Shown here: piece by piece, positions 19,166 through 35,569 of the stretch
How the letters are laid out: each line of letters opens with the position of its first letter
Position numbering within the stretch: position 1 is the first letter of the stretch
NCBI GenBank assembly: GCA_052146355.1
Contig: JBKQNE010000049.1
Span: 20,031-84,030, forward strand
From: Candidatus Binataceae bacterium
Lineage (GTDB): Bacteria > Desulfobacterota > Binatia > Binatales > Binataceae
Reading direction: 5' to 3'
Length of the DNA stretch: 64,000 nt
Notes under the pieces: generated by a model
Told to the model about the DNA's origin: nothing
Seen by the model: only the letters and a program-made list of their open reading frames with translations
The model's database searches: none
Made by a program: the position numbers and the translations under genes

Positions 19166-19281
19166 GGCGCGGATGCGGCGCGGTGCCGGCGCGCGGGTAA
19201 CTTGACCGACCGGCACGTGCGCGCAATTTTGCTAGCATCGCCGGGGCCGCTCAAGTACTTGCCGCAGGAAGTGCAGACCGC

Positions 19282-20070
19282 TTGATACTTATCTTCTACG
19301 CATTCGCTCGCGAAATCGCGCCGTTCAAGCGCAGGCTGAAAAATCGCCGCCCGCTGGAGCATCGCGAACTGCATGGTTTTCGGGCCGAAGTCGCCGGAAC
19401 CGAGATCGCCGCGATCGCAACCGGAATTGGAATCAGGCGCGCGCTCGATACTGCGCGGCGGGCGTTCGAAGTTTATCCCGATGCGGAGATTGCGATCGGT
19501 GCCGGAGTCGCCGGTTCGCTGACCAGCGCGCTCGGGCCCGGCGATCTGGTGCTGGCGGATCGCGTGATGGTCCATCACGCCGCCGACGTTGAACCGGAAC
19601 ACGTTACCGCCATCGATGAGAACAATTTGAGCGAGCTTGGGCGGATGCTGAATGGCGCGGGGCTGCGCTACAGCAGCGGGACCATTCTGACTTCGCATCG
19701 CGTGTTGCCCGGCAGCGTGGAGAAGCGGCGCGCCAACGAGCGCACCGGCGCCATCGCCGTCGACATGGAGACCGCATCGATCGCTAGCGAAGCAGGCGCG
19801 CGCGGCATTCCGTTCGCCAGCGTGCGCACCATCATCGACGCCGCCGACGATGATGTCGTCGGGGCGGGACTGGCCGACGAAGAGGGACGCGTCAGCGCGC
19901 TCGCCGCGACGGGTCGTCTGATTCGCAACCCGGGCGAGATATTCAGGCTGCCGCGGATGATGCTGAACCTGAACCGCGCGACGCGATCGCTCGCCGATGC
20001 GCTCGAAGTGATCGCGTGGCGCGGCGCGCCTATCGCACGAGGTCGGGCGGCAAAAAAGAACCGGCGCTGA
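19282..20070 (+). CDS. hpnG: hopanoid-associated nucleoside phosphorylase HpnG type (PNP/UDP family)
   Basis: PNP_UDP-fold blocks (IATGIGIRRA, GAGVAGSL, AVDMETASIA). TTG start. Divergent from hpnK. Confidence 0.7.
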   Translation: MILIFYAFAREIAPFKRRLKNRRPLEHRELHGFRAEVAGTEIAAIATGIGIRRALDTARRAFEVYPDAEIAIGAGVAGSLTSALGPGDLVLADRVMVHHAADVEPEHVTAIDENNLSELGRMLNGAGLRYSSGTILTSHRVLPGSVEKRRANERTGAIAVDMETASIASEAGARGIPFASVRTIIDAADDDVVGAGLADEEGRVSALAATGRLIRNPGEIFRLPRMMLNLNRATRSLADALEVIAWRGAPIARGRAAKKNRR

Positions 20071-21334: not shown

Positions 21335-21367
21335 GGTTGATTCCTCCATATGCTGGAGCTGAGCCAG

Positions 21368-21445
21368 CAACCTAACCCCTTACCCCTTCCCGCCTCCAGA
21401 GGCCTTGCGGAGGGCAGGCCCTGAGACGGAAGGTGAACCAGAGAG
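21368..21445. repeat. REP-like element related to the arms of the 45.0-kb inverted repeat
   Basis: caacctaaccccttaccccttccc ... cctgagacggaaggtgaaccagagag, with an inserted hairpin (gcctccagaggccttgcggagggc). Compare caacctaacccctaaccccttccctgagaaggaagggg at 45035. Confidence 0.5.
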
Positions 21446-21976: not shown

Positions 21977-22054
21977 CTCGGGCACCTCCCCGCTGTGCGG
22001 GAACATACACCAGATTGCCGGAAAAGAGAGGGTGAATCGCGTCGGTCAGGGGAA

Positions 22055-22308: not shown

Positions 22309-23208
22309 TCAGCCGAAACGGCGGCGGATTTCGGGGGAATGCGCTCTCAACACTGACGGAACGATCAGGCCGCGTTCGTACGGAAAATCATGCAGATGGC
22401 GCTCGATCGCGTCTTCGTCGCCGTAGCAGTCGCTGCGGGTCAGGATGTCCAGCGCCAGCGCGAGGAACGGCAGATAGACAAACACGCTGGCCCATCCGAT
22501 CTCGGACGCGCGAATACGAAACAGCATCGTCACGCCGAAGCATACGATTCCCAGGTAGAGCGCCGGGCCCAGGAGCGCGCGCGAGGGAAAGGACACGACC
22601 GCACCATACGGCTTTCGCGACCCGATGTTCATGGCTGAATCGAGCAGCACGAAAATCGCAATCGTAACCGCGGCCACGAAGTACCATCCGAGGTAGTTGC
22701 TGATCGGCACGCCGAAATGCGGGCCGGCCGGGTCGTACCAGAAGATTTTGCCCAGGAACCATCGGTCGCCGAGCACGCTCAGCGGATCGACCACCCAATC
22801 GATCATCACCATGAACAGCGACGCCAAAAGCCATACGCGCGGCGCGCGGCGGATTTTCCAGGTGTCGAGCAGGCGCAGGTCCCATCCGTTGCGGTAGAGC
22901 GGCGCGCAGAGCAGCAAAGCGACCGTGTAGCTCGCAAAACCGAGGAACGTGAAGGACAACGAGTCCATGAACGGCACGCCGAAGACCCAGATTTCACGGT
23001 TCCGGGTGCCCTCGATGTAGTGATAAAGGCCGAACGGAAATCCGTTGTGCACCGAAGACCACTCACAGCCGAGCGACACGACGTAGGTCAGTATTGCGAA
23101 GAGCAAAGTGGCGCGCAGGCCGAAGTTGACGATGGCGATGAAAAGAAAGCTCGCCAGGAAGATGAAGACGTAGGGGCGAAGCGCGACGGTGGAAATCAGC
23201 AGGTGCAT
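22309..23208 (-). CDS. polytopic membrane protein, DUF422 / carotenoid-biosynthesis-protein family (CruF-like)
   Basis: 299-aa ORF with about 8 hydrophobic segments. The stretch GCEWSSVHNGFPFGLYHY...GVPFMDSLSFTFLGFASY resembles the Caroten_synth (DUF422) family as I remember it. Starts 10 nt after the hpnA stop. Confidence 0.6.
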   Translation of the reverse strand: MHLLISTVALRPYVFIFLASFLFIAIVNFGLRATLLFAILTYVVSLGCEWSSVHNGFPFGLYHYIEGTRNREIWVFGVPFMDSLSFTFLGFASYTVALLLCAPLYRNGWDLRLLDTWKIRRAPRVWLLASLFMVMIDWVVDPLSVLGDRWFLGKIFWYDPAGPHFGVPISNYLGWYFVAAVTIAIFVLLDSAMNIGSRKPYGAVVSFPSRALLGPALYLGIVCFGVTMLFRIRASEIGWASVFVYLPFLALALDILTRSDCYGDEDAIERHLHDFPYERGLIVPSVLRAHSPEIRRRFG

Positions 23209-23218: not shown

Positions 23219-24229
23219 TCACGCCGCCGCGCGCGGAGCCACCCCGCTGCGCCGGAAAAACTCGATAGCGCCCGCGAGGGCGTCGTCTACGGGACTGGGA
23301 GCATAGCCAAGGTCGCGCGTCGCCTTCGACGAGTCGAAGAACATCCGCTTGCGCGACATCCGCACTTCGGTGACGCTGGCGCGTGGCGCGCGATGCGTCA
23401 CCATGCGCGAGACCGCCTCCGCGCCCAGCGCGAATCCATACGCCACCGCATACGGCAGCTTGACGCGCGGGGCAGGCAGGCCCGACAGGCGCGCGAGACG
23501 TTCGAGCATTTCTTTCAGCGTCAGGTTCTCGCCGCCCAGAATATATCTCTCGCCGATACGGCCGCGTTCGGCCGCAAGCAGATGGCCCCGCGCCGCATCC
23601 TTGACGTCGACGAGGTTCAGGCCCGTATCGACATAGGCCGGCATCCTGCGATTCAGGAAATCGACGATCACGCGCCCGGTCGGCGTAGGTTTCAGGTCGA
23701 GAGGCCCAACCGGAGTGGAAGGATTGACGACTACGACCGGCGCTCCTGAACGCGCCGCCTCGACCGCCACCTTCTCCGCGAGAAACTTGGATCGTTTGTA
23801 AGGGCCGGTCATGTCATCGAGCGACACAGGAGTATCTTCCGTACCAACTCCGCCGTGCGGAATTCCCAGCGCGCCCACCGTGCTCGTATGAACGATGCGC
23901 TCGACGCCGGCGCGATGCGACGCGTCGATGATATTGCGGGTGCCCTCCACGTTGGCCGCATACATCGGGGCGGGATCGGGAACCCAGAGCCGATAGTCGG
24001 CGGCGACGTGATAGACCTGATTGCAGCCGGCGACTGCGCGCTCGACCGAGTTGCGATCGCGAAGGTCGCCCACCGCGAATTCCACGTCGAGGCCCGCCAG
24101 CGCGCCGCGATCGGCGCCCTCGCGGATGAAGATGCGGACCCGATCGCCTCGTGCCAGCAGCGCGCGCGCGACGTGGCACCCCACGAAGCCGTTCCCTCCC
24201 GTCACGAGTGCGAGTCTCGGCACGGTCAC
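23219..24229 (-). CDS. hpnA: hopanoid-associated NAD-dependent sugar epimerase/dehydratase HpnA
   Basis: LVTGGNGFVGCHVARALLARG Rossmann motif, extended-SDR layout, and position after hpnE. The GTG start at 24229 overlaps the hpnE TGA (GTGA). The longer ORF N-terminus is Arg-rich overlap junk. Confidence 0.8.
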   Translation of the reverse strand: MTVPRLALVTGGNGFVGCHVARALLARGDRVRIFIREGADRGALAGLDVEFAVGDLRDRNSVERAVAGCNQVYHVAADYRLWVPDPAPMYAANVEGTRNIIDASHRAGVERIVHTSTVGALGIPHGGVGTEDTPVSLDDMTGPYKRSKFLAEKVAVEAARSGAPVVVVNPSTPVGPLDLKPTPTGRVIVDFLNRRMPAYVDTGLNLVDVKDAARGHLLAAERGRIGERYILGGENLTLKEMLERLARLSGLPAPRVKLPYAVAYGFALGAEAVSRMVTHRAPRASVTEVRMSRKRMFFDSSKATRDLGYAPSPVDDALAGAIEFFRRSGVAPRAAA

Positions 24230-25602
24230 TCTCCACCCGCGTCCGCGGCGGCGCGATGAGCGACCGCGCCGGCAGCGGCACGCCCTGCCATGACGGCGCT
24301 CTCGATCGTCGCGGGAAGGCCGGTCTGAATCCAATCGCCGGCGAGAAACAGATTCGGGAACGGGGTCGCCGCGGGCGGTCGCAGTTGATGTGACCGCGTA
24401 TCGGGCGCCATGGTGGCCTGCTTTTCCTTGAGCACGATCGCCTTGGTGACCTTGGCGCTGCGCGCCGTGGGAATCATCGTGTACAGATCGTTGATCACCA
24501 GCTCCAGGATCTCATCGTTGGATTTATCGACGAGAGAGCGCGCGCCGCTGATTACGAAGCTCAAGTACCCCGGATGCCGTTCGCCGTGGCGTTCGAAAAT
24601 CCTGCGTTTGTTGAACAGCCACTGGGTCGGAGTGCCGATAAAGCCCACAAATGCCGAACGCGTGACTTCGCGGTCGAACCAGACGTGGACGCAGATTGTC
24701 GGGGTCGTGCCAAGCTCGTCGATGCGCCTGAAGAAAGGGTCTGCGACCGCGTTCTCGGGGAGCATGCGAACCAGGTGATGGGGAGGGACGGCGGCGATGA
24801 AATTGGCGGCCGCCAGTTTGCGCCCGTCGCGCAGGCGCACGCGCTCCACCGTGCCGTCGCCGGCGATTTCCAGCCCCTCGACGATCGCGTGCGAGGCGAT
24901 GACGCCGCCGGATTGCTCGATAACCGCGCGCGCGCCCGTGCAATACAGATCGCTGAGACCCACCCGGGAATAAACGAAAGCGGAATCCTGGCGGCGCGCG
25001 AAAAATGCACGCTTCAACACCTCGGCGAACAGCGCCGCGGAGGAGACTTCGGGCTCGTCGTTGAGAGTCGCAATCGAGATCGGGTACCAAAAAGCGCGGC
25101 GCGCATTCTCGCTCTGCCCCAACTGGTTCATCAATTCGGTTACGGTAAGTTTTTCCAGCGCCGCCGGGTCGCGCCTGCGTATCGCGCGCAACTTGAGGCC
25201 GGCTCGAATCGCCGAGAGCCGCTCTCCAAGACTCAAATGGCGGTAGCGCAGCAGCGCGGCGCCCATGTGAAGGGGGCCGGGCAGATGAGCGGTGCGAACG
25301 GTCGCGCTGCGGCCGGGACCCGCGAGCATCTCGATTTCCAGATCGGGATGAAAGACGAGCTTGTCGCCGGACCCGATCTTGTTCAGGAAATCCAGGCTCT
25401 CCTTGTAGCAGCCCATCAGCACGTGCTGTCCATTGTCGACGAAGTCGCCGGTTTCCGGATCCTCGAACGAGTAGGCGCGCCCGCCAAGCGCGGGCTTGCG
25501 TTCGAGCAGAGCGACACGGAAGCCGCGCTCGGCAAGCGCCACTCCCGCGCTTAGTCCGGCGAAGCCGCCGCCGACTACGACGACATCTTTCGAATCGACC
25601 AT
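24226..25602 (-). CDS. hpnE: hydroxysqualene dehydroxylase HpnE (FAD-dependent amine-oxidase fold)
   Basis: VVVVGGGFAGLSAGVALAERGFRVALLERKPALGGR dinucleotide motif, 458 aa, directly downstream of hpnC-hpnD. Confidence 0.85.
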   Translation of the reverse strand: MVDSKDVVVVGGGFAGLSAGVALAERGFRVALLERKPALGGRAYSFEDPETGDFVDNGQHVLMGCYKESLDFLNKIGSGDKLVFHPDLEIEMLAGPGRSATVRTAHLPGPLHMGAALLRYRHLSLGERLSAIRAGLKLRAIRRRDPAALEKLTVTELMNQLGQSENARRAFWYPISIATLNDEPEVSSAALFAEVLKRAFFARRQDSAFVYSRVGLSDLYCTGARAVIEQSGGVIASHAIVEGLEIAGDGTVERVRLRDGRKLAAANFIAAVPPHHLVRMLPENAVADPFFRRIDELGTTPTICVHVWFDREVTRSAFVGFIGTPTQWLFNKRRIFERHGERHPGYLSFVISGARSLVDKSNDEILELVINDLYTMIPTARSAKVTKAIVLKEKQATMAPDTRSHQLRPPAATPFPNLFLAGDWIQTGLPATIESAVMAGRAAAGAVAHRAAADAGGE

Positions 25603-25620
25603 CTGTATGTAGTAGTAACC

Positions 25621-26535
25621 TTACCCGCGCAGCGCGCCAAGGCGGGAGGTCGCCCACGCGCGTCCAACGAGGTAAAGCTTGTGCGGCGCCGAGAGGCTCA
25701 GCCTGCGATCCAGCACGCGATAATTTGAACTGACGATCAGGTCAAGCAGCGAACCATAGATGAGGCGCATCGCCTCCGCCGTCAGCAACGTGGAGCGATC
25801 CTCGCGCGGCAGCGAATGCTCAGCGCGTTCATAGAAGTCGCGCGCGCGGCGCGCCTCGAACTCCATCAGGCTCACGAACGCATCGTTGTAGACCCCGCTC
25901 AGGATCTCGCTCTCCGGCACGTGAAAGCGCTGCAAATCCTCCAGCGGAATATAGATTCGCCCGCGGGTCGCATCTTCCTTCACGTCGCGCAGGATGTTGG
26001 TGAGCTGGCAGGCGATGGCGAGATTTTCAGCATAAACCTTGGCGGCGGGATTGCTGTAGCCGAAGATCTCGATACAGATGAGGCCGACCACCGAGGCGGC
26101 CCGATAGCAGTACACGCGAAGCTCGTCGAACGTCGCGTAGCGCTTGCGGGAGAGATCCATCTCCATGCCCGCGATGAGTTCCTCGAAATATTCGCGCGGA
26201 ACGCGAAACCGCACCACGGCATCCGCGAGCGCGCGGGAGATCGGCCGCGTCGGTTCGCCGTCTCCGTAGACGCGGCCAAGTTCTTCACGCCATCGCGCCA
26301 GCAGGCCCGCCGGCTCGCCGATCGATTCGTCGTCGGCGATGTCGTCGACAAAGCGGCAAAACGCATAGACCGCATACAGCGCGCGGCGGCGTTCCGCGGG
26401 CAGCAGCATGAAGGCGTAGTAGAAATTCGACGACGACTGCCGCGTGATCTCGGCGCAGCGGCGGTAGTCCGCCTCGAGCGACGCCGCGGCGCTTTCTTCG
26501 AGCCGATCGCCGAAGTCAGGATTCAAGTTTCCCAC
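25621..26535 (-). CDS. hpnD: presqualene diphosphate synthase HpnD
   Basis: Squalene/phytoene synthase fold with Asp-rich FVDDIAD and DVKED-type motifs, plus the SSSNFYYAFMLLP block. Second of the tandem pair. GTG start overlapping hpnC by 20 nt. Confidence 0.8.
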   Translation of the reverse strand: MGNLNPDFGDRLEESAAASLEADYRRCAEITRQSSSNFYYAFMLLPAERRRALYAVYAFCRFVDDIADDESIGEPAGLLARWREELGRVYGDGEPTRPISRALADAVVRFRVPREYFEELIAGMEMDLSRKRYATFDELRVYCYRAASVVGLICIEIFGYSNPAAKVYAENLAIACQLTNILRDVKEDATRGRIYIPLEDLQRFHVPESEILSGVYNDAFVSLMEFEARRARDFYERAEHSLPREDRSTLLTAEAMRLIYGSLLDLIVSSNYRVLDRRLSLSAPHKLYLVGRAWATSRLGALRG

Positions 26536-27439
26536 GCAGCGCGTTCCATCCCAGTTTCAGATAGTCGAATTTCGAAAGCTTGGGCCGGTTGTGAAATACG
26601 TCGTACCCCACCCGCTCGATAGCACGGAGTATCGCCAGCCCTCCGCCCGCAAACATCAGCATGTCGCGGCTGAGACGCCGATCGACGAGCCGATGGATCT
26701 GCCCGCCTTCGATGAGCATCGCGCGCGCGAAGCCGACTTCATGCTTGAGCAACGCGCTGAAGTTCCCGCCCGTGGCGCCGCGGTTCAGGTCCTCGACGGT
26801 CACGCCAAATTGCGCCATGTCGTGGCGGGGAAGATAAACGCGTCCCTTGCCGAGGTCGATAGCGACATCCTGCCAGAAATTGGCGAGCTGCAAGCCGCTG
26901 CAAACCAGATCGGAAAGCCGCTGGCGTTCGGCATCGCGATAGCCGAACAAATAGAGCACCAGGCGGCCGACAGGATTTGCCGAATAGCGCGAGTAGCCGA
27001 GCAGATCGCCGATCGTGTCGAAGCCCTGGAAATTCACGTCGGATCGGAATGCCACCAGCAGGTCGGCGAATGGTTCGCGCGGAATCTCAAATCGATTCAC
27101 GGTATCGGCGATCGCGACGAACACCGGATGACTCGGCACGCCCGCGTACGCCAGGTCGAGTTCGCGCTCCCAGGCATCGAGCTTGGCGAGGTCGTGATCT
27201 TCGTCGGCGAAGTCGTCGGCGATCCGCGCGTAGGCGTAGATCGCGTACATGTATTTGCGCATCGCGGGCGGCATCATCCACGAGGCGACGGTGAAGTTTT
27301 CGTAGTGAGATTTCGCAAGGCCTGCGCAGAATTCGTAGGCGGCCTCGACGGAGACCGTCGCGCGATGTACGGCACCATCGCCAAGTAGTGCCGCCGATTC
27401 AGTGCCAAGCACCGTCCCCATCGCTTCCGTGCGCCTCAC
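26516..27439 (-). CDS. hpnC: hydroxysqualene synthase HpnC
   Basis: Squalene/phytoene synthase fold with SHYENFTVAS block and IADDFADE Asp-rich motif. First of the hpnC-hpnD-hpnE order. Confidence 0.8.
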   Translation of the reverse strand: MRRTEAMGTVLGTESAALLGDGAVHRATVSVEAAYEFCAGLAKSHYENFTVASWMMPPAMRKYMYAIYAYARIADDFADEDHDLAKLDAWERELDLAYAGVPSHPVFVAIADTVNRFEIPREPFADLLVAFRSDVNFQGFDTIGDLLGYSRYSANPVGRLVLYLFGYRDAERQRLSDLVCSGLQLANFWQDVAIDLGKGRVYLPRHDMAQFGVTVEDLNRGATGGNFSALLKHEVGFARAMLIEGGQIHRLVDRRLSRDMLMFAGGGLAILRAIERVGYDVFHNRPKLSKFDYLKLGWNALRGKLES

Positions 27440-27449: not shown

Positions 27450-28619
27450 TCAAGCAGCCGCGGAATGTCCGCCCATCAGCCGGCGCGCTTCCGTGCGCGC
27501 CCATTCGTCGGTTTCGAGCAGGTCTTCGAGCGTGCGCGCGGCGGCATTCGGATGCCGCCCGAGGATCGATTCGAGGTGGCGCGGGATGTCGATGAAGCGC
27601 GCCCTGCCGGCCAGGAACCCCGCGACCAGTTCTTCGTTAGCGGCGTTGAGGCACGCCGGCATCGTGTTGCCCGCCTTAAGCGCCTCGAACGCCATGCCCA
27701 GACAGGGAAAGCGGGCGATGTCGGGTTCTTCGAACGTAAGTTGCGAGCACTCGGCGAGCGAAAGCGTCTTGAGATGCGGCATCGGCAGCCGGTCGGGATA
27801 TGCGAGCGCATAAGCGACCGGGATCGCCATATCGGGAATTGCCATCTCGGCAATCACGGAGCCATCCACCATTTCAACCATCGAGTGGATCACGCTCTGC
27901 GGATGAATCACCACGGAAATCTGGTCCGTATCGACGCCGAACAGCCATCGCGCCTCGATGACTTCGAGACCCTTGTTCATCAGCGTCGCGGAATCGATCG
28001 TAATCTTGCTGCCCATCCGCCAGGTCGGATGGTTCAATGCCTGCTCGATCGTGATCGATTCGAAATGCTCCGCAGGCAGGTTGCGGAACGGGCCGCCGGA
28101 AGCGGTCAGGATGATGCGCCGCAGGCCTTCGCGACCACGCCCTTCCAGGCATTGAAAGATTGCGTTGTGCTCGCTGTCGACCGGGAGCAGCCGGACGCCG
28201 TGCTCGCGCACGGTCCGCGTCACCAACTCGCCCGCGATCACCAGCACTTCCTTGTTGGCGAAGGCGATGTCCTTGCCCGCTTTGATCGCGGCGAGCGTCG
28301 GGCGCAGGCCCATCGCGCCGACCAGCGCCGACATCAGCATTTGCGCATCGGGATGCGTCGCGACGGCGGTCGCTCCTTCGAGGCCGTGGACTATCTCGAC
28401 CTTGATCGTTCCCAAACGGGCGCGAAGGTCGCCGGCCAGTTCCGCGTTCGCCACCGAGACCAGCTCGGGGCGGAATTTTTTTACCTGCGCGGTGAGGAGA
28501 TCGAGATTGCGGCCCGCCGCCATGGCGGCCACGCGAAAGCGATCGGGAAACCGGCTGACCACGTCGAGCGTGGTGACGCCGACCGAGCCGGTCGAGCCGA
28601 GTATCGAGATGGTCTTCAT
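27450..28619 (-). CDS. dxr: 1-deoxy-D-xylulose-5-phosphate reductoisomerase
   Basis: MKTISILGSTGSVGVTTLDV N-terminus, NKEVLV, LPVDSEHNAIFQCL and other canonical Dxr blocks. 389 aa. Confidence 0.95.
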   Translation of the reverse strand: MKTISILGSTGSVGVTTLDVVSRFPDRFRVAAMAAGRNLDLLTAQVKKFRPELVSVANAELAGDLRARLGTIKVEIVHGLEGATAVATHPDAQMLMSALVGAMGLRPTLAAIKAGKDIAFANKEVLVIAGELVTRTVREHGVRLLPVDSEHNAIFQCLEGRGREGLRRIILTASGGPFRNLPAEHFESITIEQALNHPTWRMGSKITIDSATLMNKGLEVIEARWLFGVDTDQISVVIHPQSVIHSMVEMVDGSVIAEMAIPDMAIPVAYALAYPDRLPMPHLKTLSLAECSQLTFEEPDIARFPCLGMAFEALKAGNTMPACLNAANEELVAGFLAGRARFIDIPRHLESILGRHPNAAARTLEDLLETDEWARTEARRLMGGHSAAA

Positions 28620-28634: not shown

Positions 28635-30638
28635 CTAGTTCGATGCGGTTTCCTTGAGGCGGGTGCGGAAACGCCCGAGCGCCATCAGCGGGAAATAGTG
28701 CGCGTACATCCAGTAGCGCAGGTAAAAATGGTTGGGGAACCCGGTCCCCGTGAATTCGTTTTCATCCCACGCGCCAACATCGTTCTGCCGCTCCACAAGC
28801 CATTGCACGCCGCGCATCACCGATTCGCCGATGCCCTCTTCGCCGGCAATCAGCGCGATTAGAGCCCACGCGGTCTGTGACGCCGTGCTGGTGCCGCGCC
28901 CGCGCCACGCAGGATCTTTGTCGGCCAGCGGGCTCTCGCCCCATCCGCCGTCAGCGTTCTGCTTTGACTTGAACCACTCGACCGCGCGCTTGATCCAGGG
29001 CTCCTTCATGTCGCATCCGATGGCGCGCAGGCCGGAGAGGGCGGCTGACGTGCCGTAGATGTACGCGATGCCCCATCGCCCCCACCAGGCGCCGTCGGAG
29101 GACTGATTGCGCTTGAGCCAATCGATGGCGCGGCGCGCGACAGGATGATCGGGCTTGTAGCCGACCACCGCCATCATCTCCAGCACTCGACCGGTGAGAT
29201 CTGCGCAGGAAGGATCGGTCACCGCTTCGACATCCGCGAGCGGCAGATTGTTGAGCCAATGCGCGTCGTTGTCGACGTCGAAAGCGGCGAACCCGCCATC
29301 CTTCGATTGCATCCCCATGACCCAGTTCGCGCCCGCGCTGATACATCGCTCGCGCTTGGCGGCGTCGTCGCATGCCGCTTCCGCCATGACCATCAAAATA
29401 ACCGCGGAGTCGTCCACGTCGGGAAACCAGTCATTATAAAACTGAAATGCCCATCCGCCCGGCTCCAGGTGCGGCCGCTTAATCGACCAATCGCCGCGCT
29501 TGAAAATCTGATTGCTAATGAACCACGCGGCGCTCTTGCGCAGCGCCGGATGATCTCCCGGCGTGCCTGAATCGATCAGCGCCTTCGCCGCCAGCGCGGT
29601 GTCCCAGTTCGGCGAGACGCACGGCATGTAGAGCGCGGTGTCGCCGAGGTCCCAGAGCAGTTCGCGCGACCCTTCGAGCGCCTTCTGGAGAACAGGATGG
29701 TCGTTGCGATAGCCCAACGCCTTGAGCGCCATCGCGCTCAGCAGATAGCACGGCTCGATTCCGCCCCACGTTCCGTTGGCATCCTGATGCTCGAGAATCC
29801 AGTTCTCGGCGTGGCGCAGCGCGCGGGTACGCAAGCCCTTGAGGTTGTGATGGTCGTAGACGCGCAGGCCCTTGTCGACGACGTTAAACAGGCTGCGCAG
29901 AGAGAGCGCTCTCTTCGCGCTTGGCTGCTTGAACTTCGTGAAATGCGGCGGCTGGATGTAAAGCTCGAGAATGCCGTCCTGATGGCTCACCTCCACGGCC
30001 GGGCGCATCGCCTGCAGAATCATCAGCGCGAACGTCGTGCCGCGCGCCCACGAGGAAAGCTCGTACATGTTGAATGGGAACCAGTTCGGGAACAGCGAGA
30101 TCTCGACCGGCAGCGCCGCGGTCGAATCCCACGGCACCTGCCCCATCGCGGCCAGATAAAAGCGGGCAAGCGTGCCGCACTTTTCGATTCCGCCCTGGGA
30201 CAGGATCCAGCGCCGCGCCTGGATCATCGTCTCGTCGCCGGCGCGCATTCCGGCCAGCTTGAGCGCGAAGTAAGTCTCGATTGAGATGGAAAGATATCCC
30301 GGACTGCCCGCGAAGATGCTCCAGCTACCGTCGGCATTTTGCGCATCGAGCAGCAGCTTCTTGAGCTTCGCTTCCAGCTCTATGTCGACCGTGCCCATGA
30401 AGTGGCTGAAGATGATGTACTCCGCGTTCATCTGGGCGTTCGCTTCGAGCACGGCCTGCCAGTAACCCTCGGCGTGCTGTTGATTGATCAGCGAATCGCG
30501 GGCGCGCTCGATGGTGTAGTCGAGCTTCCCGACGAACTCATCGTGGGGCCCGACCGCGGATGACAGCGGTTGTGATTCGGTTGGTGAGAGCTGGCTCATT
30601 TGGTCTGACTCGTTCATTCGGCCGCACTGGCGCGCCAC
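28635..30638 (-). CDS. shc: squalene-hopene cyclase
   Basis: Multiple QW repeats (e.g. NADGSWS, QSKDGGF, QNADGGWGE, RQNDVGAWDE) and the DVDDSAV catalytic Asp motif. Start uncertain: GTG 30638, ATG 30617 or ATG 30599. Confidence 0.95.
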   Translation of the reverse strand: MARQCGRMNESDQMSQLSPTESQPLSSAVGPHDEFVGKLDYTIERARDSLINQQHAEGYWQAVLEANAQMNAEYIIFSHFMGTVDIELEAKLKKLLLDAQNADGSWSIFAGSPGYLSISIETYFALKLAGMRAGDETMIQARRWILSQGGIEKCGTLARFYLAAMGQVPWDSTAALPVEISLFPNWFPFNMYELSSWARGTTFALMILQAMRPAVEVSHQDGILELYIQPPHFTKFKQPSAKRALSLRSLFNVVDKGLRVYDHHNLKGLRTRALRHAENWILEHQDANGTWGGIEPCYLLSAMALKALGYRNDHPVLQKALEGSRELLWDLGDTALYMPCVSPNWDTALAAKALIDSGTPGDHPALRKSAAWFISNQIFKRGDWSIKRPHLEPGGWAFQFYNDWFPDVDDSAVILMVMAEAACDDAAKRERCISAGANWVMGMQSKDGGFAAFDVDNDAHWLNNLPLADVEAVTDPSCADLTGRVLEMMAVVGYKPDHPVARRAIDWLKRNQSSDGAWWGRWGIAYIYGTSAALSGLRAIGCDMKEPWIKRAVEWFKSKQNADGGWGESPLADKDPAWRGRGTSTASQTAWALIALIAGEEGIGESVMRGVQWLVERQNDVGAWDENEFTGTGFPNHFYLRYWMYAHYFPLMALGRFRTRLKETASN

Positions 30639-30660: not shown

Positions 30661-31722
30661 TTAGGGAATTACCGCGCACTTGAGGACCGCGCCCCGGTCC
30701 ATCATCGCGAACACATCGGCGAGGTCGCTCAGGTTGCGATGCGCGTTGATGATTCGATGCGCTCCGAGGCGGCGCTCCGCGAGCAACTCGTGGGCGCGGC
30801 GCACGTCGCGCCTGCGATAGTGAAACGGAGCGAGCAACGACAGGCCGTCGTAGTGCATCCGGCGCGTGTCGACGCTGAGCACCGTGCCGGGCGGGCATCC
30901 GCCGAAAAACACCACCCGCCCGCCGCGACGGGTGCGCGCGAGCGCATCGCTCCATCCGTCGAGCTGGCCGGTGCATTCGATTACCAGGTCGGGACCATAG
31001 CCGCCGTTCAGCCGCGCCGCGGCCGCGGCGGCATCTTCGTGGTCGACGTCGATTACGCGGTCCGCGCCCATCTCGGCCGCCCATCGGAGGCGATCCTTGC
31101 CGCGGCCTGCGATGACCACCTGGCGAACGCCGGCCGCCCGCAGCACCATCATGTGGATCAATCCGAACGGACCGCCGCCGATAATCATCGCGGTCTCGTA
31201 CGATTCGGGTTTCGCGATCGCCTGCGCGTGGACGACGCAGGAAAGCGGCTCCAGCAAGGCCGCCTCTTCGAACGGCAGATCGGGCGGTTTGGGAAAAGTA
31301 TTTTTCGCCACCACGAGCGCGGGCAGCAGGAGCATGTCCCCGTATGCGCCAAGGACCATCTTGTCGATCGCGGTTGCGCACAGATTTTCCTGGCCGCGGC
31401 CGCAGTAGAAGCAGATGCCGCACGGAGCGGTCGGCGCGGCCATCACCTCGTCGCCCGGCGCAAATTCGATCACGCCCAGGCCGACTTCGGCCACGACGCC
31501 CGCGAACTCGTGCCCAAAGGGCGTCGGCATCTTCCACAGCGGATGCCCGCGGCGCCAGGCCTTGAGGTCGGTTCCGCAACTCAGCGCGCATCGCACCTGC
31601 AGCAGAATCTCGCCCGCGCCCGGATGAGACGGCACGAAGTCGCGCATCTCGAGACGCCCCGGCGCGACCAGCATCGCGCGGCGCGGATTCGTGGATTGAA
31701 GCGAAGCAGCCGCGCCGCTCAT
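30661..31722 (-). CDS. zinc-dependent MDR alcohol/polyol dehydrogenase
   Basis: Catalytic Zn ligands (SCGTD, FGHEFAG), structural Zn site CGICFYCGRGQENLC, GGGPFG Rossmann motif. Its ATG overlaps the ispA stop (ATGA at 31719..31722). Confidence 0.85.
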   Translation of the reverse strand: MSGAAASLQSTNPRRAMLVAPGRLEMRDFVPSHPGAGEILLQVRCALSCGTDLKAWRRGHPLWKMPTPFGHEFAGVVAEVGLGVIEFAPGDEVMAAPTAPCGICFYCGRGQENLCATAIDKMVLGAYGDMLLLPALVVAKNTFPKPPDLPFEEAALLEPLSCVVHAQAIAKPESYETAMIIGGGPFGLIHMMVLRAAGVRQVVIAGRGKDRLRWAAEMGADRVIDVDHEDAAAAAARLNGGYGPDLVIECTGQLDGWSDALARTRRGGRVVFFGGCPPGTVLSVDTRRMHYDGLSLLAPFHYRRRDVRRAHELLAERRLGAHRIINAHRNLSDLADVFAMMDRGAVLKCAVIP

Positions 31723-32609
31723 AGCTTGCGCTCCACTACGAAAGTCGCGACCGCGCGCAACGGATCGGCGCGCTCGTCGAAATCCGCGAGCGCGCGATGG
31801 GCAGTGCGCTCGAGTTCTCGCGCAAATTCGCGCGAGCGTGCCGCGCCCATCAAAGTTGGAAAAGTCGCCTTGCCCGCGGCTTCGTCCTTGCCGGTCCGTT
31901 TGCCCATCTGCTCGGTGGTCGCTTCGACATCGAGGAGGTCATCGATAACCTGGAAAGCCAACCCCAGCGCGCGCGCGTACTCGTCCAAAGACGAAAGCTG
32001 AGCGGCCGAACCGCCGCCGAGTCTGGCGCCGCCGACGATCGACGCGCGAAACAATGCGCCGGTTTTCTTGCTGTGCAGATGCTTCAATTCGTCGAGCGAC
32101 AGCGTCAGACCCTCGCTCTGAAGATCGATCACCTGTCCGCCGACCATTCCGCATGAGCCGGCGGCGCGCGCCAGCTCCGCGACCGTCTCGAGCACGATCG
32201 CCGCAGGCACGCCGTCGGAGGCGGAACGCGCCAGCACGTTGAATGCGTCGGTCAGCAGGCCGTCGCCTGAAAGCGTGGCCATCGCTTCGCCGTAGACCTT
32301 GTGATTGGACGGACGGCCGTGCCGGAGATCGTCGTCATCCATGCACGGCAAGTCGTCGTGAATGAGCGAATAGTTGTGCACCATCTCAACCGCGCACGCG
32401 AAGCCCATCGCGCGCTCGTGCGCTCCGCCCACCGCCTCGCACGACGCGAGCGCCAGGATAGGCCGCAGGCGCTTGCCGCCGCCGAGCAGGCTGTAACGCA
32501 TCGCCTCGTACAGACGAGCGTCGGCGCCGGAAGGTTCCGCGACGACCTTCGACAGCGCGCGCTCGACGAGCGCGGCTCGTTCTTTCAAATAGCGATCGAG
32601 TTGAAACAT
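31719..32609 (-). CDS. ispA: polyprenyl (farnesyl) diphosphate synthase
   Basis: First Asp-rich motif [14 protein letters not shown] and second [10 protein letters not shown] chose the ATG at 32609 (MFQLDRYL...) over the Gly/Pro-rich extension from the ATG at 32711. Confidence 0.85.
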
Positions 32610-32715
32610 GTCTCTAACGGACCCACAAATCCGGCCGCCGGCGCCGGGCATGAATCGCCCGGAAAGCGCGGCCGCACTGCCGCCCGGAGGCGGCCCGCCC
32701 ACATCAACCATCGGC

Positions 32716-33720
32716 TCAGGACATATAATGACGAACCATTCGCCACGAATCCTTTAAATTCTTGCCGAACTCCATCGCGACCGTGCCTTCGAATCCCGAG
32801 TGCAACTTGCAGTCACGGCAGCGGATGTCCTGCTTGGTGCGGTAGAACTCCCAATCCGTCGCCTCGTGCAACTGCTTGAACGTCTGGTAGTGACCGTTGG
32901 TGATGAGGTAACACGGCCCCTTCCATCCGCGCGGATTGCGCGTGACGGTCGTCCACGGGCTGCACGTAAGGTCGCGTTCACCGACCAGGTAGTCGAGGTA
33001 AATCGGGGTATTGATGATCTTGTAGTCGTCGGCGAGCTTGCGGACCTTCTTGAACTTGTACGGCATCTCTTCTTTCTTGAGATAGAGATCGTCGTTGTTC
33101 AGCACCTGGTAATGGTAGCCGGGCGACAGCAGCATGCCGTCCACGCCGAGACTGCCCAGCAGCTTGACGAGTTCTTCCAGCTCTTCGCCGGTCGTCTCGC
33201 GAAAGACCGTAGTGTTGGTCTGCACGCGATAGCCCTTGTCCTTGAGCATCCGGATCATCTTCATGATGATGTCGAAATGACCCTGGCGATCGACGACGCG
33301 GTCGTTAGTTTCGCGCATGCCGTCGATATGGAGATTGAAGCTCAGGTAGGGGCTCGGCGGGACCTGCTTGACGAAGCGCTCGAGCAGGATCGCGTTGGTG
33401 CAGATCATGACGTGGCGGCCCTGCTCTTCGATAAGCCGCGTGGTGAGCGGCGCGATATGCTTGTACATCAGCGGCTCGCCGCCGCAGATAGAGACGATCG
33501 GCGCGCCGCACTCCTGCGCCGATGCGACCGCTTCATCGAGCGGCATCATGTCGCGAATCGTTTCCTTGTACTCGACGATTCGTCCGCATCCGACGCACGC
33601 CAGGTTGCATGCGTGCAAAGGCTCGAGCATCAGCACGAGCGGAAAATATTTCTCACCGGCCCGCTTCTTCCTGCTCATGTAGCGGCCCAGGTCGATCATC
33701 TGCTTAAGCGGTACCCGCAT
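32716..33720 (-). CDS. hpnH: adenosylhopane synthase, radical SAM protein HpnH
   Basis: CNLACVGC radical SAM cluster motif near the N-terminus, 334 aa, and location at the head of the shc/hpnCDE operon. Confidence 0.8.
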   Translation of the reverse strand: MRVPLKQMIDLGRYMSRKKRAGEKYFPLVLMLEPLHACNLACVGCGRIVEYKETIRDMMPLDEAVASAQECGAPIVSICGGEPLMYKHIAPLTTRLIEEQGRHVMICTNAILLERFVKQVPPSPYLSFNLHIDGMRETNDRVVDRQGHFDIIMKMIRMLKDKGYRVQTNTTVFRETTGEELEELVKLLGSLGVDGMLLSPGYHYQVLNNDDLYLKKEEMPYKFKKVRKLADDYKIINTPIYLDYLVGERDLTCSPWTTVTRNPRGWKGPCYLITNGHYQTFKQLHEATDWEFYRTKQDIRCRDCKLHSGFEGTVAMEFGKNLKDSWRMVRHYMS

Positions 33721-33753: not shown

Positions 33754-34413
33754 TCAGGCGACGGCTTTGCCGCCGTCGGATGGTGTTTGATTGCCGAACA
33801 GCCACTCGCTGGCCATCGCCACCGCGGCGATCGGATCCAACGGATTGTTGGCCACGAATAGATGCTCGATCAGGATGCCGTTGAGCGCCGACAGCAGAAA
33901 CCCCGCCGCCGCCTCGGGCGAGAACCGGCCTGTGCACAGCCCCTTCTGCTGGGCGCGCGCGATCAGCTCCACCAGCATCGCGCGGTAGCCTGAATAGAGC
34001 TTCAAAACCTGTTCGTTGAGCCCCTCCGAGAAATGCTGGTCGTGCAACATTTGCGCGAGAAAAAAGCGCACTGAACTAGCGTTATCGCGCACGAACAACA
34101 AATAGAACTCCACCAGCTTTTGAATCTGGGCGCGCTCGTCGAGGACGCCGGCTTCCTCGGCAAAGTCGATGAAATACGGTTCGAGCAGCCGGTTCAGAAC
34201 CGCCACGAAAAGCTCTTCCTTGGTCTTGAAGTGCCAGAAGATGAGCGCCTTGCTGACGTGCGCCTCTCGCGCAACCTCAGACATGGAAGTCTCGTGAAAG
34301 CCCCGATTCGCGAACAGATGCATCGCGGCTTTCAGAATCTCATCGCGGGAGTCCTGGGAACTGTGACTATCGGCGGAAACGGTGCGCGTCTCTTCTGGGG
34401 TACTCATTGACAT
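33754..34413 (-). CDS. TetR/AcrR family transcriptional regulator
   Basis: HTH block ILKAAMHLFANRGFHETSMSEVAREAHVSKALIFWHFKTKEELF. First gene of the co-directional hopanoid array. Confidence 0.85.
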   Translation of the reverse strand: MSMSTPEETRTVSADSHSSQDSRDEILKAAMHLFANRGFHETSMSEVAREAHVSKALIFWHFKTKEELFVAVLNRLLEPYFIDFAEEAGVLDERAQIQKLVEFYLLFVRDNASSVRFFLAQMLHDQHFSEGLNEQVLKLYSGYRAMLVELIARAQQKGLCTGRFSPEAAAGFLLSALNGILIEHLFVANNPLDPIAAVAMASEWLFGNQTPSDGGKAVA

Positions 34414-34452
34414 CAAATGTGACGGCCGTCGCTAACCTATCGGTCAATCGTA

Positions 34453-34546: not shown

Positions 34547-35569
34547 TCAGGATGCAATACTTATTTCAGCGCCTAGGCTTTTGGCAGATTCGCGCGCGGC
34601 GACGATGAGCGACAACGCATTTCGCGCTTCGTTGAGATTGGTTCGGGCGGTTGGGGAATCGATACCCTCGGAGATGGCGCGCTCGAACGCCGCTGCCATG
34701 CCAGCAAACCAGGTCGAATGGTACGAATCGTCGACGATGTCCTGCACGGACAGGTCGTGAGTCACGCCTGCCCCGTCAGTAAAGATGGCGCGATCGCCCT
34801 CAATTTCGAGCGTCCCGTTTTCGCCCGATATCGTTGCCGACGTCTTCCTGGCGGCGGCGCGCCAGGAGAGATGCGCCTGCGCGGCGCGGCCGGAGGAAAA
34901 CCTGACGCGGAGATCGGCGACCTCTTCGGTGCCGCCTGCTTCACCCGAGAGACTCGCCGAAATGGCGCCGGGAGCTTCATCGCCCATCAGCCATTGCATC
35001 AGGTAGAAGACGTGCCAGCCATGGTCGATAAGAATTCCTCCACCGGAATCACTGGCCGAGCGCCATGCGCCCCCCGCCCGACCCGTGCCGGCAGGCTCGG
35101 TACGCAGGCGGTCGAGCGAAAGAGAATTGACGGCACCGACCCGTCCATCATCGATGAGCTGACGCGCCATCGCATACGCGGGGGCATACTTCCAATTGTG
35201 CACGCACATCAGGATGCGCCCGTTGGTTCGCGCCAGGCCGGCAAGCTCGTCGAATTCCGCGAGCGAAAGACAAAGCGGCTTCTCGACCAGCACGTGGGCG
35301 CGCGCCTTCAATGCGAGACGCGCCGCCGTCGCATGATACGCGGGCGGACTCGCGATATCGACGAAGTCGAGCGCCTCACCATCGAGCATCAGCTCGAGGT
35401 CGTCGTAGACGCGGACGTTCTTGATTAGCCGAATCGCTTCGTGCCGACGCTCCGAAACGGGATCGTGAATGACGGAGATATTGATCCCGTCGCGGGTGCG
35501 CCATCCGGTCAGATGGGCTTTCGCGGCAACCTCGCCAAAGCCCGATATTGCGCCTCTCAATCGACCCAC
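34547..35569 (-). CDS. Gfo/Idh/MocA family oxidoreductase
   Basis: Rossmann N-terminus (RGAISGFGEVAAKAH), LVEKPL motif and C-terminal alpha/beta domain. The true start is probably GTG 35569 or TTG 35560, overlapping the upstream stop. The long Arg-rich 5' part of ORF 34547..36343 overlaps the LLM gene and is rejected. Confidence 0.75.
   Translation of the reverse strand: MGRLRGAISGFGEVAAKAHLTGWRTRDGINISVIHDPVSERRHEAIRLIKNVRVYDDLELMLDGEALDFVDIASPPAYHATAARLALKARAHVLVEKPLCLSLAEFDELAGLARTNGRILMCVHNWKYAPAYAMARQLIDDGRVGAVNSLSLDRLRTEPAGTGRAGGAWRSASDSGGGILIDHGWHVFYLMQWLMGDEAPGAISASLSGEAGGTEEVADLRVRFSSGRAAQAHLSWRAAARKTSATISGENGTLEIEGDRAIFTDGAGVTHDLSVQDIVDDSYHSTWFAGMAAAFERAISEGIDSPTARTNLNEARNALSLIVAARESAKSLGAEISIAS

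What the first reader, a model, noticed from the sequence alone, without database searches (positions are those of the whole stretch)
30661..31722. Zn-dependent polyol-type dehydrogenase translationally coupled between ispA and shc: candidate for the unassigned ribosylhopane-to-BHT reduction
The ORF is a complete MDR dehydrogenase, with catalytic Zn ligands, the structural CGICFYCGRGQENLC site and a GGGPFG NAD(P) motif. Its ATG overlaps the ispA stop, and it ends 22 nt before shc, so it is almost certainly co-expressed with the pathway. In the accepted scheme, HpnH makes adenosylhopane and HpnG removes adenine. The resulting ribosyl/formyl intermediate is then reduced to bacteriohopanetetrol by an NAD(P)H-dependent enzyme. 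To my knowledge that enzyme has no assigned gene. A sorbitol/threonine-dehydrogenase-like enzyme embedded here is a logical candidate. The SDR genes at 20030 and the AKR at 7476 are weaker alternatives.
Basis: inference. Interest (0 to 1): 0.65.

Follow-up and report, generated by a model that had tools for sequence, protein, structure and literature searches.

The report
Zinc dehydrogenase inside hopanoid operon
A complete zinc-dependent, probably NADPH-using dehydrogenase sits inside the hopanoid lipid operon of an uncultured soil bacterium (Binataceae). Relatives sit in the hopanoid clusters of Acidobacteria too, so it is a credible but unproven candidate for the missing enzyme that makes bacteriohopanetetrol.

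Summary
Window 30661-31722 (minus strand) encodes an intact 353-aa Zn-dependent MDR dehydrogenase. Its start overlaps the FPP-synthase stop by 4 nt (ATGA), and it ends 22 nt before shc, in the operon hpnH-ispA-MDR-shc-dxr-hpnC-hpnD-hpnE-hpnA-CruF-like.

This position is kept in every Binataceae locus that spans it (about 76 distinct copies, 66-81% identity). All Zn ligands are invariant, and a Gly-Arg replaces the NAD-type Asp, which predicts NADP(H) use.

The enzyme belongs to a distinct MDR subfamily ("MDR1-type") that matches no curated equivalog. Elsewhere this subfamily occurs as an unlinked MDR1-MDR2(-cupin) module. In Acidobacteriaceae, however, the pair lies inside the hopanoid cluster (shc-hpnH-hpnA-hpnG-MDR2-MDR1-hpnCDE). 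These are the genes "ug1/ug2" noted in 2017 as Zn alcohol dehydrogenases of unestablished function.

Hopanoid linkage is therefore seen in two phyla, and the tree gives no support for a single shared origin. Recent literature confirms that the ribosylhopane-to-BHT enzyme is still unassigned.

The specific reaction remains inference. 116 of 119 sampled hpnH loci from other phyla have no MDR nearby, C. thermophilum makes BHT derivatives without ug2, and aldose reduction is classically done by AKR enzymes. The verdict is a good, testable candidate that is not demonstrated and cannot be universal.

The parts
30661..31722 (-). Target gene: 353-aa Zn-dependent MDR dehydrogenase of the 'MDR1-type' subfamily, homologue of acidobacterial ug2
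   Evidence: AF2 model pLDDT 93.8. Best PDB folds are 4ej6, TDH and sorbitol DH at TM 0.87-0.89.
31719..31722 (-). ATGA overlap of the ispA stop with the MDR start (translational coupling)
   Evidence: Read from the sequence. The NTGA overlap is kept in 71/76 distinct Binataceae loci.
31576..31578 (-). Codon of catalytic-Zn ligand Cys49
   Evidence: Invariant in 85/85 orthologues.
31507..31512 (-). Codons of catalytic-Zn ligands His71-Glu72 (GHEF)
   Evidence: Invariant in 85/85 orthologues.
31378..31422 (-). Structural-Zn lobe C101-x2-C104-x2-C107-x7-C115
   Evidence: All four Cys invariant in orthologues and outgroup.
31249..31251 (-). Codon of Glu158 (EPL motif, fourth Zn-site residue of polyol/threonine DH type)
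   Evidence: 84/85 Glu. Aligns with Glu155 of human sorbitol DH.
31162..31179 (-). Rossmann motif G182-G-G-P-F-G187
31102..31107 (-). Gly206-Arg207 at the end of beta-2, in place of the NAD-specifying Asp: predicted NADP(H) preference
   Evidence: G in 84/85 and R in 81/85 orthologues. Aligns with Asp of sorbitol DH 'VVTDL' and with 'STR' of 4ej6. The specificity rule is established knowledge for MDRs.
31719..32711 (-). ispA, farnesyl-diphosphate synthase
   Evidence: NF045485 355 bits against cutoff 275.
32716..33720 (-). hpnH, adenosylhopane synthase; first gene of the operon
   Evidence: TIGR03470 380 bits against cutoff 225.
28635..30638 (-). shc, squalene-hopene cyclase
   Evidence: TIGR01507 732 bits.
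27450..28619 (-). dxr
24226..27439 (-). hpnC (26516-27439), hpnD (25621-26535), hpnE (24226-25602)
23219..24334 (-). hpnA, hopanoid-associated extended SDR; a rival candidate reductase
   Evidence: TIGR03466 471 bits against cutoff 368.
22309..23208 (-). CruF-like / Caroten_synth membrane protein; last gene of the operon
   Evidence: PF04240 E 1e-22. Syntenic in Binataceae.
33754..34416 (-). TetR-family regulator upstream of hpnH, with a promoter-like site at 34480-34453
   Evidence: Syntenic in Binataceae.
19282..20070 (+). hpnG-like phosphorylase, which makes the proposed substrate ribosylhopane
   Evidence: PNP_UDP_1 E 1.5e-22. Best NCBIfam hit is HpnG at 97.5 bits, below its cutoff of 187. 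Homologues lie inside hpn clusters of other phyla.

Best explanation
The gene encodes a soluble, Zn-dependent, NADP(H)-preferring medium-chain dehydrogenase. It is co-translated with FPP synthase and co-transcribed with hpnH, shc and the squalene genes. It most likely acts on the ribose-derived C5 side chain of C35 hopanoids. The single most likely reaction is NADPH-dependent reduction of the open-chain aldehyde form of ribosylhopane (made by HpnH plus HpnG) to bacteriohopanetetrol. On this reading it is a dedicated, lineage-restricted 'BHT synthase' in Binataceae, and through its ug2 homologue in Acidobacteria, while other BHT producers use different or promiscuous reductases. Shown: gene integrity, operon position, conservation, subfamily membership, and recurrence in hpn clusters of a second phylum. 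Inferred: co-transcription, cofactor preference, substrate and direction of reaction.
For: (1) The slot between ispA and shc is occupied in every Binataceae locus that spans it (L001-L021, L048-L127; about 76 distinct copies at 66-81% identity), and the 4-nt overlap is kept in 71/76. (2) All catalytic and structural Zn ligands are invariant, and G206-R207 replaces the NAD-type Asp. Bodlenner et al. 2015 showed ribosylhopane is reduced to BHT by a cell-free system (title cited in PMC12583986); that the activity needs NADPH is my recollection of that paper. (3) There is a second-phylum association. In 119 random hpnH loci, the only MDR hits are 3 Acidobacteriaceae loci. In 80 Acidobacteriaceae loci the order is shc-hpnH-hpnA-(hpnG)-MDR2-MDR1-hpnC-D-E on one strand. 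The MDR1 copy is 40% identical to the target and falls in the same clade (100% bootstrap against MDR2), while an exclusive Binataceae+Acidobacteria clade gets only 11% support, so a single shared origin of the linkage is not supported. (4) Those acidobacterial genes are the published ug1/ug2, listed as Zn alcohol dehydrogenases with function 'not established' (PMC5462960 text and Table S1). (5) The BHT-forming enzyme is still unassigned. (6) Of the oxidoreductases in the window, only the MDR (and HpnA) recurs next to hpnH in other phyla: AKR 1/119, SDR 1/119 at 26% identity, Gfo 0/119. (7) hpnG, whose product supplies the substrate, is present in the window.
Against: There is no biochemical or genetic evidence of any kind. 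116 of 119 diverse hpnH loci (Alpha-, Beta- and Gammaproteobacteria, cyanobacteria, Actinobacteria, Planctomycetes, Nitrospira and others) have no MDR within the 8-kb stretch fetched. From published descriptions, the hpn clusters of model BHT producers contain no such gene. C. thermophilum lacks ug2 yet makes BHT cyclitol ether. The nearest relatives (43-50% identity) form an MDR1-MDR2(-cupin) module in unrelated, housekeeping contexts in Desulfuromonadales, Nitrospirota, Armatimonadota, Anaerolineae and other Binatia. The Binataceae enzyme differs from these at only 4 conserved positions, all conservative changes, so there is no sign of a new specificity. Fold and sequence place it with threonine and sorbitol dehydrogenases, which oxidise secondary alcohols, whereas aldose reduction is typically AKR chemistry. 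In Acidobacteria it is MDR2 (ug1), not MDR1 (ug2), that stays with hpnG when the clusters split.
Confidence: 0.33

Rival explanations
1. The enzyme works on the hopanoid side chain but catalyses a different redox step. One option is oxidation of the ribosylhopane lactol to the lactone (ribonylhopane). Another is polyol-dehydrogenase-type oxidation or reduction at a secondary carbinol of BHT (for example C-34). With the NAD-type MDR2 partner, the latter could epimerise the side chain or feed further tailoring.
For: The same context evidence applies as for the main explanation. The fold and Zn site are of the sorbitol/threonine-DH type, which acts on secondary alcohols next to a polar group. There is a weak Pfam hit to the glucose-dehydrogenase C-terminus, a family of MDR aldose 1-dehydrogenases (36 bits against cutoff 34.9). 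In most lineages the enzyme is paired with a second MDR that carries the NAD-type Asp, the pattern of oxidise/re-reduce pairs. Ribonylhopane has been reported in R. palustris mutants (as discussed in PMC4263297).
Against: No product of such a reaction is known from Binataceae, which are uncultured. Binataceae operons carry MDR1 alone, with no MDR2 within 10 kb. An NADP(H)-type site fits reduction better than oxidation (inference).
Confidence: 0.2
2. It is a general polyol, amino-alcohol or small-carbonyl dehydrogenase with the same job as the unlinked MDR1 of the MDR1-MDR2-cupin module. It has no specific hopanoid role and merely landed in hpn clusters.
For: The closest relatives outside Binataceae lie in housekeeping neighbourhoods (rsmD, coaD, aspartate aminotransferase, M48 peptidase, prfB, two-component systems). 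Only 4 conservative family-specific substitutions separate it from them. The best curated hits are Tdh, at 139-145 bits.
Against: The same narrow subfamily has been captured in hpn clusters in two phyla, with different neighbours and no tree support for a shared origin. It is retained with a 4-nt overlap in all sampled Binataceae. It scores far below the Tdh cutoffs of 380 and 458, and no kbl partner is present: the neighbouring aminotransferase in outgroups is AspAT-like.
Confidence: 0.2
3. It acts earlier in the pathway on an isoprenoid alcohol or aldehyde (farnesol/farnesal-type salvage), or it supports squalene formation by HpnC/D/E.
For: It is translationally coupled to FPP synthase. In Acidobacteria ug2 directly precedes hpnC-hpnD-hpnE and stays with them when the clusters split. 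Zn-MDRs include terpenoid alcohol dehydrogenases such as geraniol dehydrogenase (established knowledge).
Against: HpnC/D/E suffice for squalene synthesis in E. coli (Pan et al. 2015, as summarised in PMC5462960). The authors of that paper concluded ug2 is not essential for squalene synthesis. The active site is of the polar polyol/threonine type with invariant Lys54 and Arg58, not an obviously hydrophobic terpenol site (inference).
Confidence: 0.12
4. The missing ribosylhopane reductase in this organism is another oxidoreductase of the locus: HpnA (23219-24334), the SDR (20030-20821), the AKR (7476-8495) or the Gfo/Idh/MocA protein (about 34547-35560). The MDR then does something else.
For: HpnA is the most widely hpn-linked unknown: 26 of 119 random hpnH loci. 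It was proposed for exactly this step (PMC5462960). AKRs are the classical aldose reductases. The SDR abuts hpnG and is syntenic in several Binataceae. Gfo is syntenic upstream of TetR.
Against: hpnA is reported to be non-essential for BHT in B. cenocepacia and is absent from R. palustris. AKR, SDR and Gfo do not recur near hpnH outside Binataceae.
Confidence: 0.15

Closest known systems
Acidobacterial 'ug2' (Zn-binding alcohol dehydrogenase, about 350 aa, preceding hpnC) and 'ug1' (Zn-dependent ADH, about 370 aa, following hpnA-hpnG); Sinninghe Damste et al. 2017, Front Microbiol 8:968
   Same: Same MDR subfamily as ug2: 40% identity to the Terracidiphilus copy, a common clade with 100% bootstrap against MDR2/ug1, the same Zn motifs including APCGxCFxCxRGQENLC, and no Asp at the cofactor site. 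It is embedded in the hopanoid gene cluster and its function is unestablished.
   Different: The neighbours differ: ispA|MDR|shc here, against hpnG-ug1-ug2-hpnC there. Binataceae carry MDR1 alone, without the ug1/MDR2 partner within 10 kb. The cofactor residues are G-R here and V-K-H in ug2. The tree gives no support for a shared hpn-linked ancestor (11%).
L-threonine 3-dehydrogenase (Tdh) and sorbitol/polyol dehydrogenases (the PDH branch of the MDR superfamily)
   Same: Same fold (TM 0.84-0.88), the Cys/His/Glu(+Glu) catalytic Zn site, and the structural Zn lobe as in bacterial and archaeal TDH.
   Different: Only 24-29% identity. NCBIfam Tdh scores of 139-145 bits lie far below the cutoffs of 380 and 458. 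It has Gly-Arg instead of the NAD-binding Asp. No kbl partner is present, and it sits in a lipid operon.
PDB 4ej6/4ejm, putative Zn-binding dehydrogenase from Sinorhizobium meliloti (structural genomics, function unknown)
   Same: Best sequence hit (E 1e-35) and best fold hit (TM 0.89). It has Ser-Thr-Arg at the same cofactor position.
   Different: 29% identity, uncharacterised, and from an organism that as far as I know makes no hopanoids. It offers no functional transfer.
Aldose reductases (AKR family) and the NADPH-dependent ribosylhopane-reducing activity of Methylobacterium organophilum extracts (Bodlenner et al. 2015)
   Same: The proposed reaction (aldose aldehyde to alditol, with NADPH) is the one these enzymes or extracts perform.
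   Different: The fold is unrelated: MDR Rossmann plus GroES-like domains, not a TIM-barrel AKR. The protein behind the Methylobacterium activity has never been identified.

Membership tests
Zn-dependent medium-chain dehydrogenase/reductase (MDR) superfamily | GroES-like catalytic domain plus Rossmann cofactor domain (PF08240 + PF00107), about 350 aa | tested here: met
   PF08240 74 bits and PF00107 79 bits, both above their cutoffs. The AF2 model at pLDDT 93.8 superposes on MDR structures at TM 0.82-0.89.
Zn-dependent medium-chain dehydrogenase/reductase (MDR) superfamily | Catalytic Zn ligands (Cys, His, Glu) and a four-Cys structural Zn site | tested here: met
   C49, H71, E72 and E158, plus C101/104/107/115, are present and invariant in 85 orthologues.
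L-threonine 3-dehydrogenase (TIGR00692 / NF003808 equivalogs) | Score above the curated equivalog cutoff | tested here: not met
   139 bits against 458, and 145 bits against 380.
L-threonine 3-dehydrogenase (TIGR00692 / NF003808 equivalogs) | NAD+-binding Asp at the end of beta-2; frequent kbl partner | tested here: not met
   Gly206-Arg207 stands in place of Asp. There is no kbl in the window, and the aminotransferase next to outgroup copies is AspAT-like.
Sorbitol / polyol dehydrogenase branch | Close sequence relationship to characterised SDH/XDH/KR enzymes and their substrate-pocket residues (Ser46, Tyr50, Phe59 in human SDH) | tested here: inconclusive
   The fold and Zn site match, but identity is 23-27%. 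In the HMMER alignment the pocket positions read Thr51, Ala55 and Pro61. No curated model passes its cutoff.
Hopanoid-cluster Zn-ADH 'ug2' (Acidobacteria) | Zn-ADH of about 350 aa that groups with ug2 rather than with ug1 or other MDRs | tested here: met
   40% identity to the Terracidiphilus gene preceding hpnC. The MDR1-type clade has 100% bootstrap against the MDR2/ug1 clade.
Hopanoid-cluster Zn-ADH 'ug2' (Acidobacteria) | Physical position inside a hopanoid biosynthesis cluster | tested here: met
   Between ispA and shc in all Binataceae loci that span the slot.
Ribosylhopane reductase (BHT-forming enzyme; no family defined yet) | NAD(P)H-dependent conversion of ribosylhopane to bacteriohopanetetrol | not testable with these tools
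   This needs an enzyme assay or mutant lipid analysis. Only context and a predicted NADP(H) site are available.
Ribosylhopane reductase (BHT-forming enzyme; no family defined yet) | Presence wherever HpnH and HpnG make BHT (if the enzyme is universal) | tested here: not met
   No MDR lies within the 8-kb stretch fetched in 116/119 diverse hpnH loci. C. thermophilum lacks ug2. Whole-genome presence or absence could not be tested.
Aldo-keto reductase (aldose reductase) family | TIM-barrel Aldo_ket_red domain | tested here: not met
   No such Pfam hit; the protein is an MDR. A separate AKR is encoded at 7476-8495.
TIGR03366 'HpnZ_proposed' (phosphonate-associated ADH) | Score above the curated cutoff | tested here: not met
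   85 bits against cutoff 328. The 'Hpn' in that name refers to phosphonate catabolism, not hopanoids.

The most novel reading that the evidence does not exclude
The MDR1-type subfamily (this gene, acidobacterial ug2, and perhaps the unlinked MDR1 of the MDR1-MDR2-cupin module in other hopanoid-producing phyla) is the long-sought dedicated ribosylhopane reductase that forms bacteriohopanetetrol. That would close the last unassigned step between diploptene and BHT in these lineages. It would also explain why genetic screens in Proteobacteria never found the gene: those organisms would use a non-homologous or redundant reductase.
Probability: 0.3. Interest if true: 0.75.

Novelty: new member of a known kind. 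Interest (0 to 1): 0.5.

Why it matters
Bacteriohopanepolyols are major bacterial membrane lipids and the source of the most abundant molecular fossils. The step that turns ribosylhopane into bacteriohopanetetrol has had no gene for more than a decade: some reviews call the enzyme 'not yet established' and others assume the step is non-enzymatic. This analysis ranks one enzyme subfamily above the other oxidoreductases of the locus. It is fixed in the core hopanoid operon of a whole family of abundant soil bacteria. The same subfamily sits in the hopanoid cluster of Acidobacteria, which include culturable strains, so the hypothesis can be tested directly. If it is confirmed, presence of the gene would sharpen genome-based prediction of BHT production. 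If it is refuted, the MDR1/MDR2 pair would point to an unknown hopanoid side-chain modification in two dominant soil phyla.

Tried and rejected
(1) RNA evidence for co-transcription: no RNA run holds the stretch, only soil DNA metagenomes.

(2) AF2 from the single sequence failed (pLDDT 36). It was redone with a 40-sequence alignment (pLDDT 93.8). The fold search returned only generic TDH/SDH/ADH neighbours and gave no substrate clue.

(3) The hpnH protein-anchored genome scan returned only Binataceae. It was useful for conservation but not for other phyla, so it was replaced by a degenerate-motif DNA scan (after a rejected first pattern).

(4) L042 seemed to show a 37%-identical MDR next to a 34%-identical cyclase. 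This is an artefact of a frameshift-ridden long-read MAG, with hits in several frames.

(5) I tested the idea that the outgroup MDR1 is Tdh paired with Kbl. It was rejected: the adjacent Aminotran_1_2 protein is aspartate-aminotransferase-like.

(6) The B12-radical-SAM and patatin neighbours in one Desulfuromonadales locus suggested a lipid context, but they are not conserved in other loci.

(7) I searched for residues shared by the two hpn-linked lineages but absent from unlinked MDR1s. Only F272 was found, so there is no convincing specificity signature.

(8) I searched for an MDR2 partner near the Binataceae operon. None lies within 10 kb; the extra MDR in L001-L003 is only about 32% identical to MDR2.

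(9) The Bodlenner 2015 and Liu 2014 papers are not held in the library, so NADPH dependence of the cell-free activity rests on my recollection and on the title cited in PMC12583986.

Full report
OBSERVATION. The ORF lies on the minus strand at 30661-31722. It is 353 aa with an ATG start and GC3 of 0.82. Pfam finds ADH_N and ADH_zinc_N. The ATG overlaps the stop of the upstream gene as ATGA (31719-31722), and the stop (30661-30663) lies 22 nt from the first possible shc start.

The minus-strand gene order was verified with NCBIfam scores above the curated cutoffs. It reads TetR | hpnH | FPP synthase | MDR | shc | dxr | hpnC | hpnD | hpnE | hpnA | CruF-like protein. The wider window is a hopanoid supercluster. 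It also holds hpnK (18305-19216), an hpnG-like phosphorylase (19282-20070, + strand), hpnR (5478-7001) and an HpnO-like class-III aminotransferase (37788-39146). A promoter-like site lies upstream of TetR, and no convincing intergenic terminator lies inside the operon. No RNA data exist for this sequence, so co-transcription is inferred.

ORGANISM AND CONSERVATION. The closest proteins (67-83% identity) carry Candidatus Binataceae or Binatus names, so the window comes from an uncultured soil Binataceae. A genome scan with the MDR gave 21 Binataceae loci, and a scan with HpnH gave 80 more. Every locus that spans hpnH to shc has the MDR between ispA and shc. The 4-nt stop/start overlap is kept in 71 of 76 distinct loci. 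Across 85 orthologues the four catalytic-site residues and the four structural cysteines are invariant.

Position 206-207, where NAD-dependent MDRs carry an Asp (it aligns with the Asp of sorbitol DH 'VVTDL'), is Gly (84/85) and Arg (81/85). By the established MDR specificity rule this predicts NADP(H).

WHAT FAMILY IT IS. No curated equivalog is reached. The best is Tdh at 139-145 bits against cutoffs of 380-458. The best solved structures are the uncharacterised S. meliloti protein 4ej6 (29% identity), then threonine and sorbitol dehydrogenases. An AF2 model built with a 40-sequence alignment is confident (pLDDT 93.8). It superposes on these same structures at TM 0.84-0.89. The protein is therefore a polyol/threonine-DH-type MDR, with no characterised close relative from which a function could be transferred.

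RELATIVES OUTSIDE BINATACEAE. The next-nearest homologues (35-50% identity) are in other Binatia, UBP10, Desulfuromonadales, Nitrospirota, Armatimonadota, Anaerolineae and Gemmataceae. None has hpn genes within 10 kb. Instead they form a conserved tandem of the target-type gene ('MDR1') and a second, 30-35%-identical MDR ('MDR2'), often followed by a cupin. Their flanks are housekeeping or regulatory genes that differ between lineages.

A degenerate DNA pattern for a conserved HpnH motif fetched 120 loci from many phyla, and 119 of them encode HpnH. Only three have an MDR nearby, and all three are Acidobacteriaceae. In Terracidiphilus (L173) the order is hpnH - small ORF - hpnA - hpnG - MDR2-type - MDR1-type - hpnC - hpnD. 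A further scan found more than 480 relatives of that MDR1 copy. In the best 80 loci, all Acidobacteriaceae, the order shc-hpnH-hpnA-(hpnG)-MDR2-MDR1-hpnC-hpnD-hpnE is essentially universal.

This matches published work. Sinninghe Damste et al. [quoted passage not shown] Zn-binding alcohol dehydrogenase ... ca. 350 amino acids', and that hpnA-hpnG is followed by ug1. Their Table S1 lists ug1 as a Zn-dependent ADH of about 370 aa and ug2 as a Zn-binding ADH of about 350 aa, both with function 'Not established'. The association of this enzyme type with hopanoid genes is therefore not new. Its presence in Binataceae, and the link between the two cases, is.

ONE EVENT OR TWO. In an NJ tree the MDR1-type clade is separated from MDR2 with 100% bootstrap. 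Binataceae (100%) and acidobacterial ug2 (100%) are each monophyletic. An exclusive Binataceae+Acidobacteria clade has only 11% support. The Binataceae enzymes nest beside the unlinked MDR1 of other Binatia and UBP10. The flanking genes also differ: ispA|shc in Binataceae, ug1|hpnC in Acidobacteria. Linkage to hpn genes is therefore best read as having arisen separately in the two phyla, which makes a chance association unlikely.

Against a new function, the Binataceae enzyme differs from unlinked MDR1s at only four conserved positions, all conservative changes (A45C, T48S, G166A, V282L). The two linked lineages share no specific residue apart from F272. Whatever MDR1 does, it probably does the same thing in the unlinked module.

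THE PREMISE. [quoted passage not shown] 2015)'. A 2026 review still draws the step as predicted non-enzymatic. The 2017 Acidobacteria paper proposed HpnA for the step. It also noted evidence that hpnA is dispensable in B. cenocepacia and absent from R. palustris.

WEIGHING. For a hopanoid side-chain role:
- absolute retention in the core operon, with translational coupling;
- recurrence of the same subfamily in a second phylum's hpn cluster, next to hpnG;
- a predicted NADP(H) site;
- among the window's oxidoreductases, only the MDR and HpnA recur near hpnH elsewhere (AKR 1/119, SDR 1/119 at 26% identity, Gfo 0/119).

Against the specific assignment:
- no experiment;
- no MDR in 116/119 hpnH neighbourhoods of other phyla;
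- C. thermophilum makes BHT derivatives without ug2;
- in Acidobacteria ug1, rather than ug2, stays with hpnG when the clusters split;
- enzymes of this fold typically oxidise secondary alcohols, whereas aldose reduction is AKR chemistry;
- the pairing of an NADP-type MDR1 with an NAD-type MDR2 (Asp in 'SDLYPERH') elsewhere also fits an oxidise/re-reduce or polyol-interconversion module.

I put about 0.6 on 'acts on hopanoids' and about 0.3 on 'is the ribosylhopane-to-BHT reductase'. If it is that reductase, it is a lineage-restricted solution, not the universal enzyme.

VERDICT. The gene is a new (Binataceae) member of a hopanoid-cluster Zn-dehydrogenase type that had been noticed before but never characterised. 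It is worth an experiment, because culturable Acidobacteria carry the homologues.

Noticed in passing
window 22309-23208 (-); also L146, L189, L196, L233, L243: A CruF-like / Caroten_synth (PF04240) membrane protein closes the hopanoid operon after hpnA. Homologues (39-47% identity) also sit next to hpnH, hpnA or shc in unrelated phyla (Syntrophobacter, Thermoflexales, Ca. Sulfobium and others). CruF enzymes hydrate terminal isoprenoid double bonds, so it might hydrate diploptene to diplopterol or modify another hopanoid.
   Followed up: partly
window 5478-7001 (-) and 7476-8495 (+): HpnR, the hopanoid C-3 methylase, scores 860 bits against a cutoff of 650, with a divergently oriented aldo-keto reductase beside it. 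Binataceae would be a soil source of 3-methylhopanoids, a biomarker usually tied to methanotrophs and acetic acid bacteria.
   Followed up: no
window 17395-18207 (-), 18305-19216 (-), 19282-20070 (+), 20030-20821 (-): A second hopanoid sub-cluster: a HAD-type phosphatase downstream of hpnK; a divergent hpnG-like phosphorylase (best hit HpnG, but below cutoff); and a classical SDR that overlaps the hpnG 3' end convergently by about 40 nt. The HAD enzyme could be the phosphatase needed if HpnG releases phosphoribosylhopane.
   Followed up: partly
window 37788-39146 (-), about 34547-35560 (-), 35557-36408 (-): A class-III aminotransferase (HpnO-like), a Gfo/Idh/MocA oxidoreductase and a luciferase-like monooxygenase lie upstream of TetR-hpnH. 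The first two are syntenic across Binataceae, which hints at aminotriol production and further tailoring.
   Followed up: partly
L022-L041, L045, L248, L249 (e.g. L248 10001-12647, Desulfuromonas versatilis): An MDR1-MDR2(-cupin) module of unknown function is conserved across Desulfuromonadales, Nitrospirota, Armatimonadota, Anaerolineae, other Binatia and UBP10. It always sits in different, unrelated neighbourhoods. MDR1 has an NADP-type cofactor site and MDR2 an NAD-type one.
   Followed up: partly
window 20870-21370 (-) and 21476-22006 (-): Two tandem SnoaL_4 (polyketide-cyclase-like) proteins lie between the CruF-like gene and the SDR. In several other Binataceae the SDR or hpnK directly follows the CruF-like gene instead, so these look like a local insertion.
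   Followed up: no
L042 1-3300: This long-read MAG has the same ispA-MDR-shc-dxr synteny, but the MDR and shc match in several reading frames. That points to frameshift errors or pseudogenes, which produced misleadingly low identities.
   Followed up: yes
window 43633-44961 (+) with 42380-43636 (+): [quoted passage not shown] Its function is unknown and was not examined.
   Followed up: no
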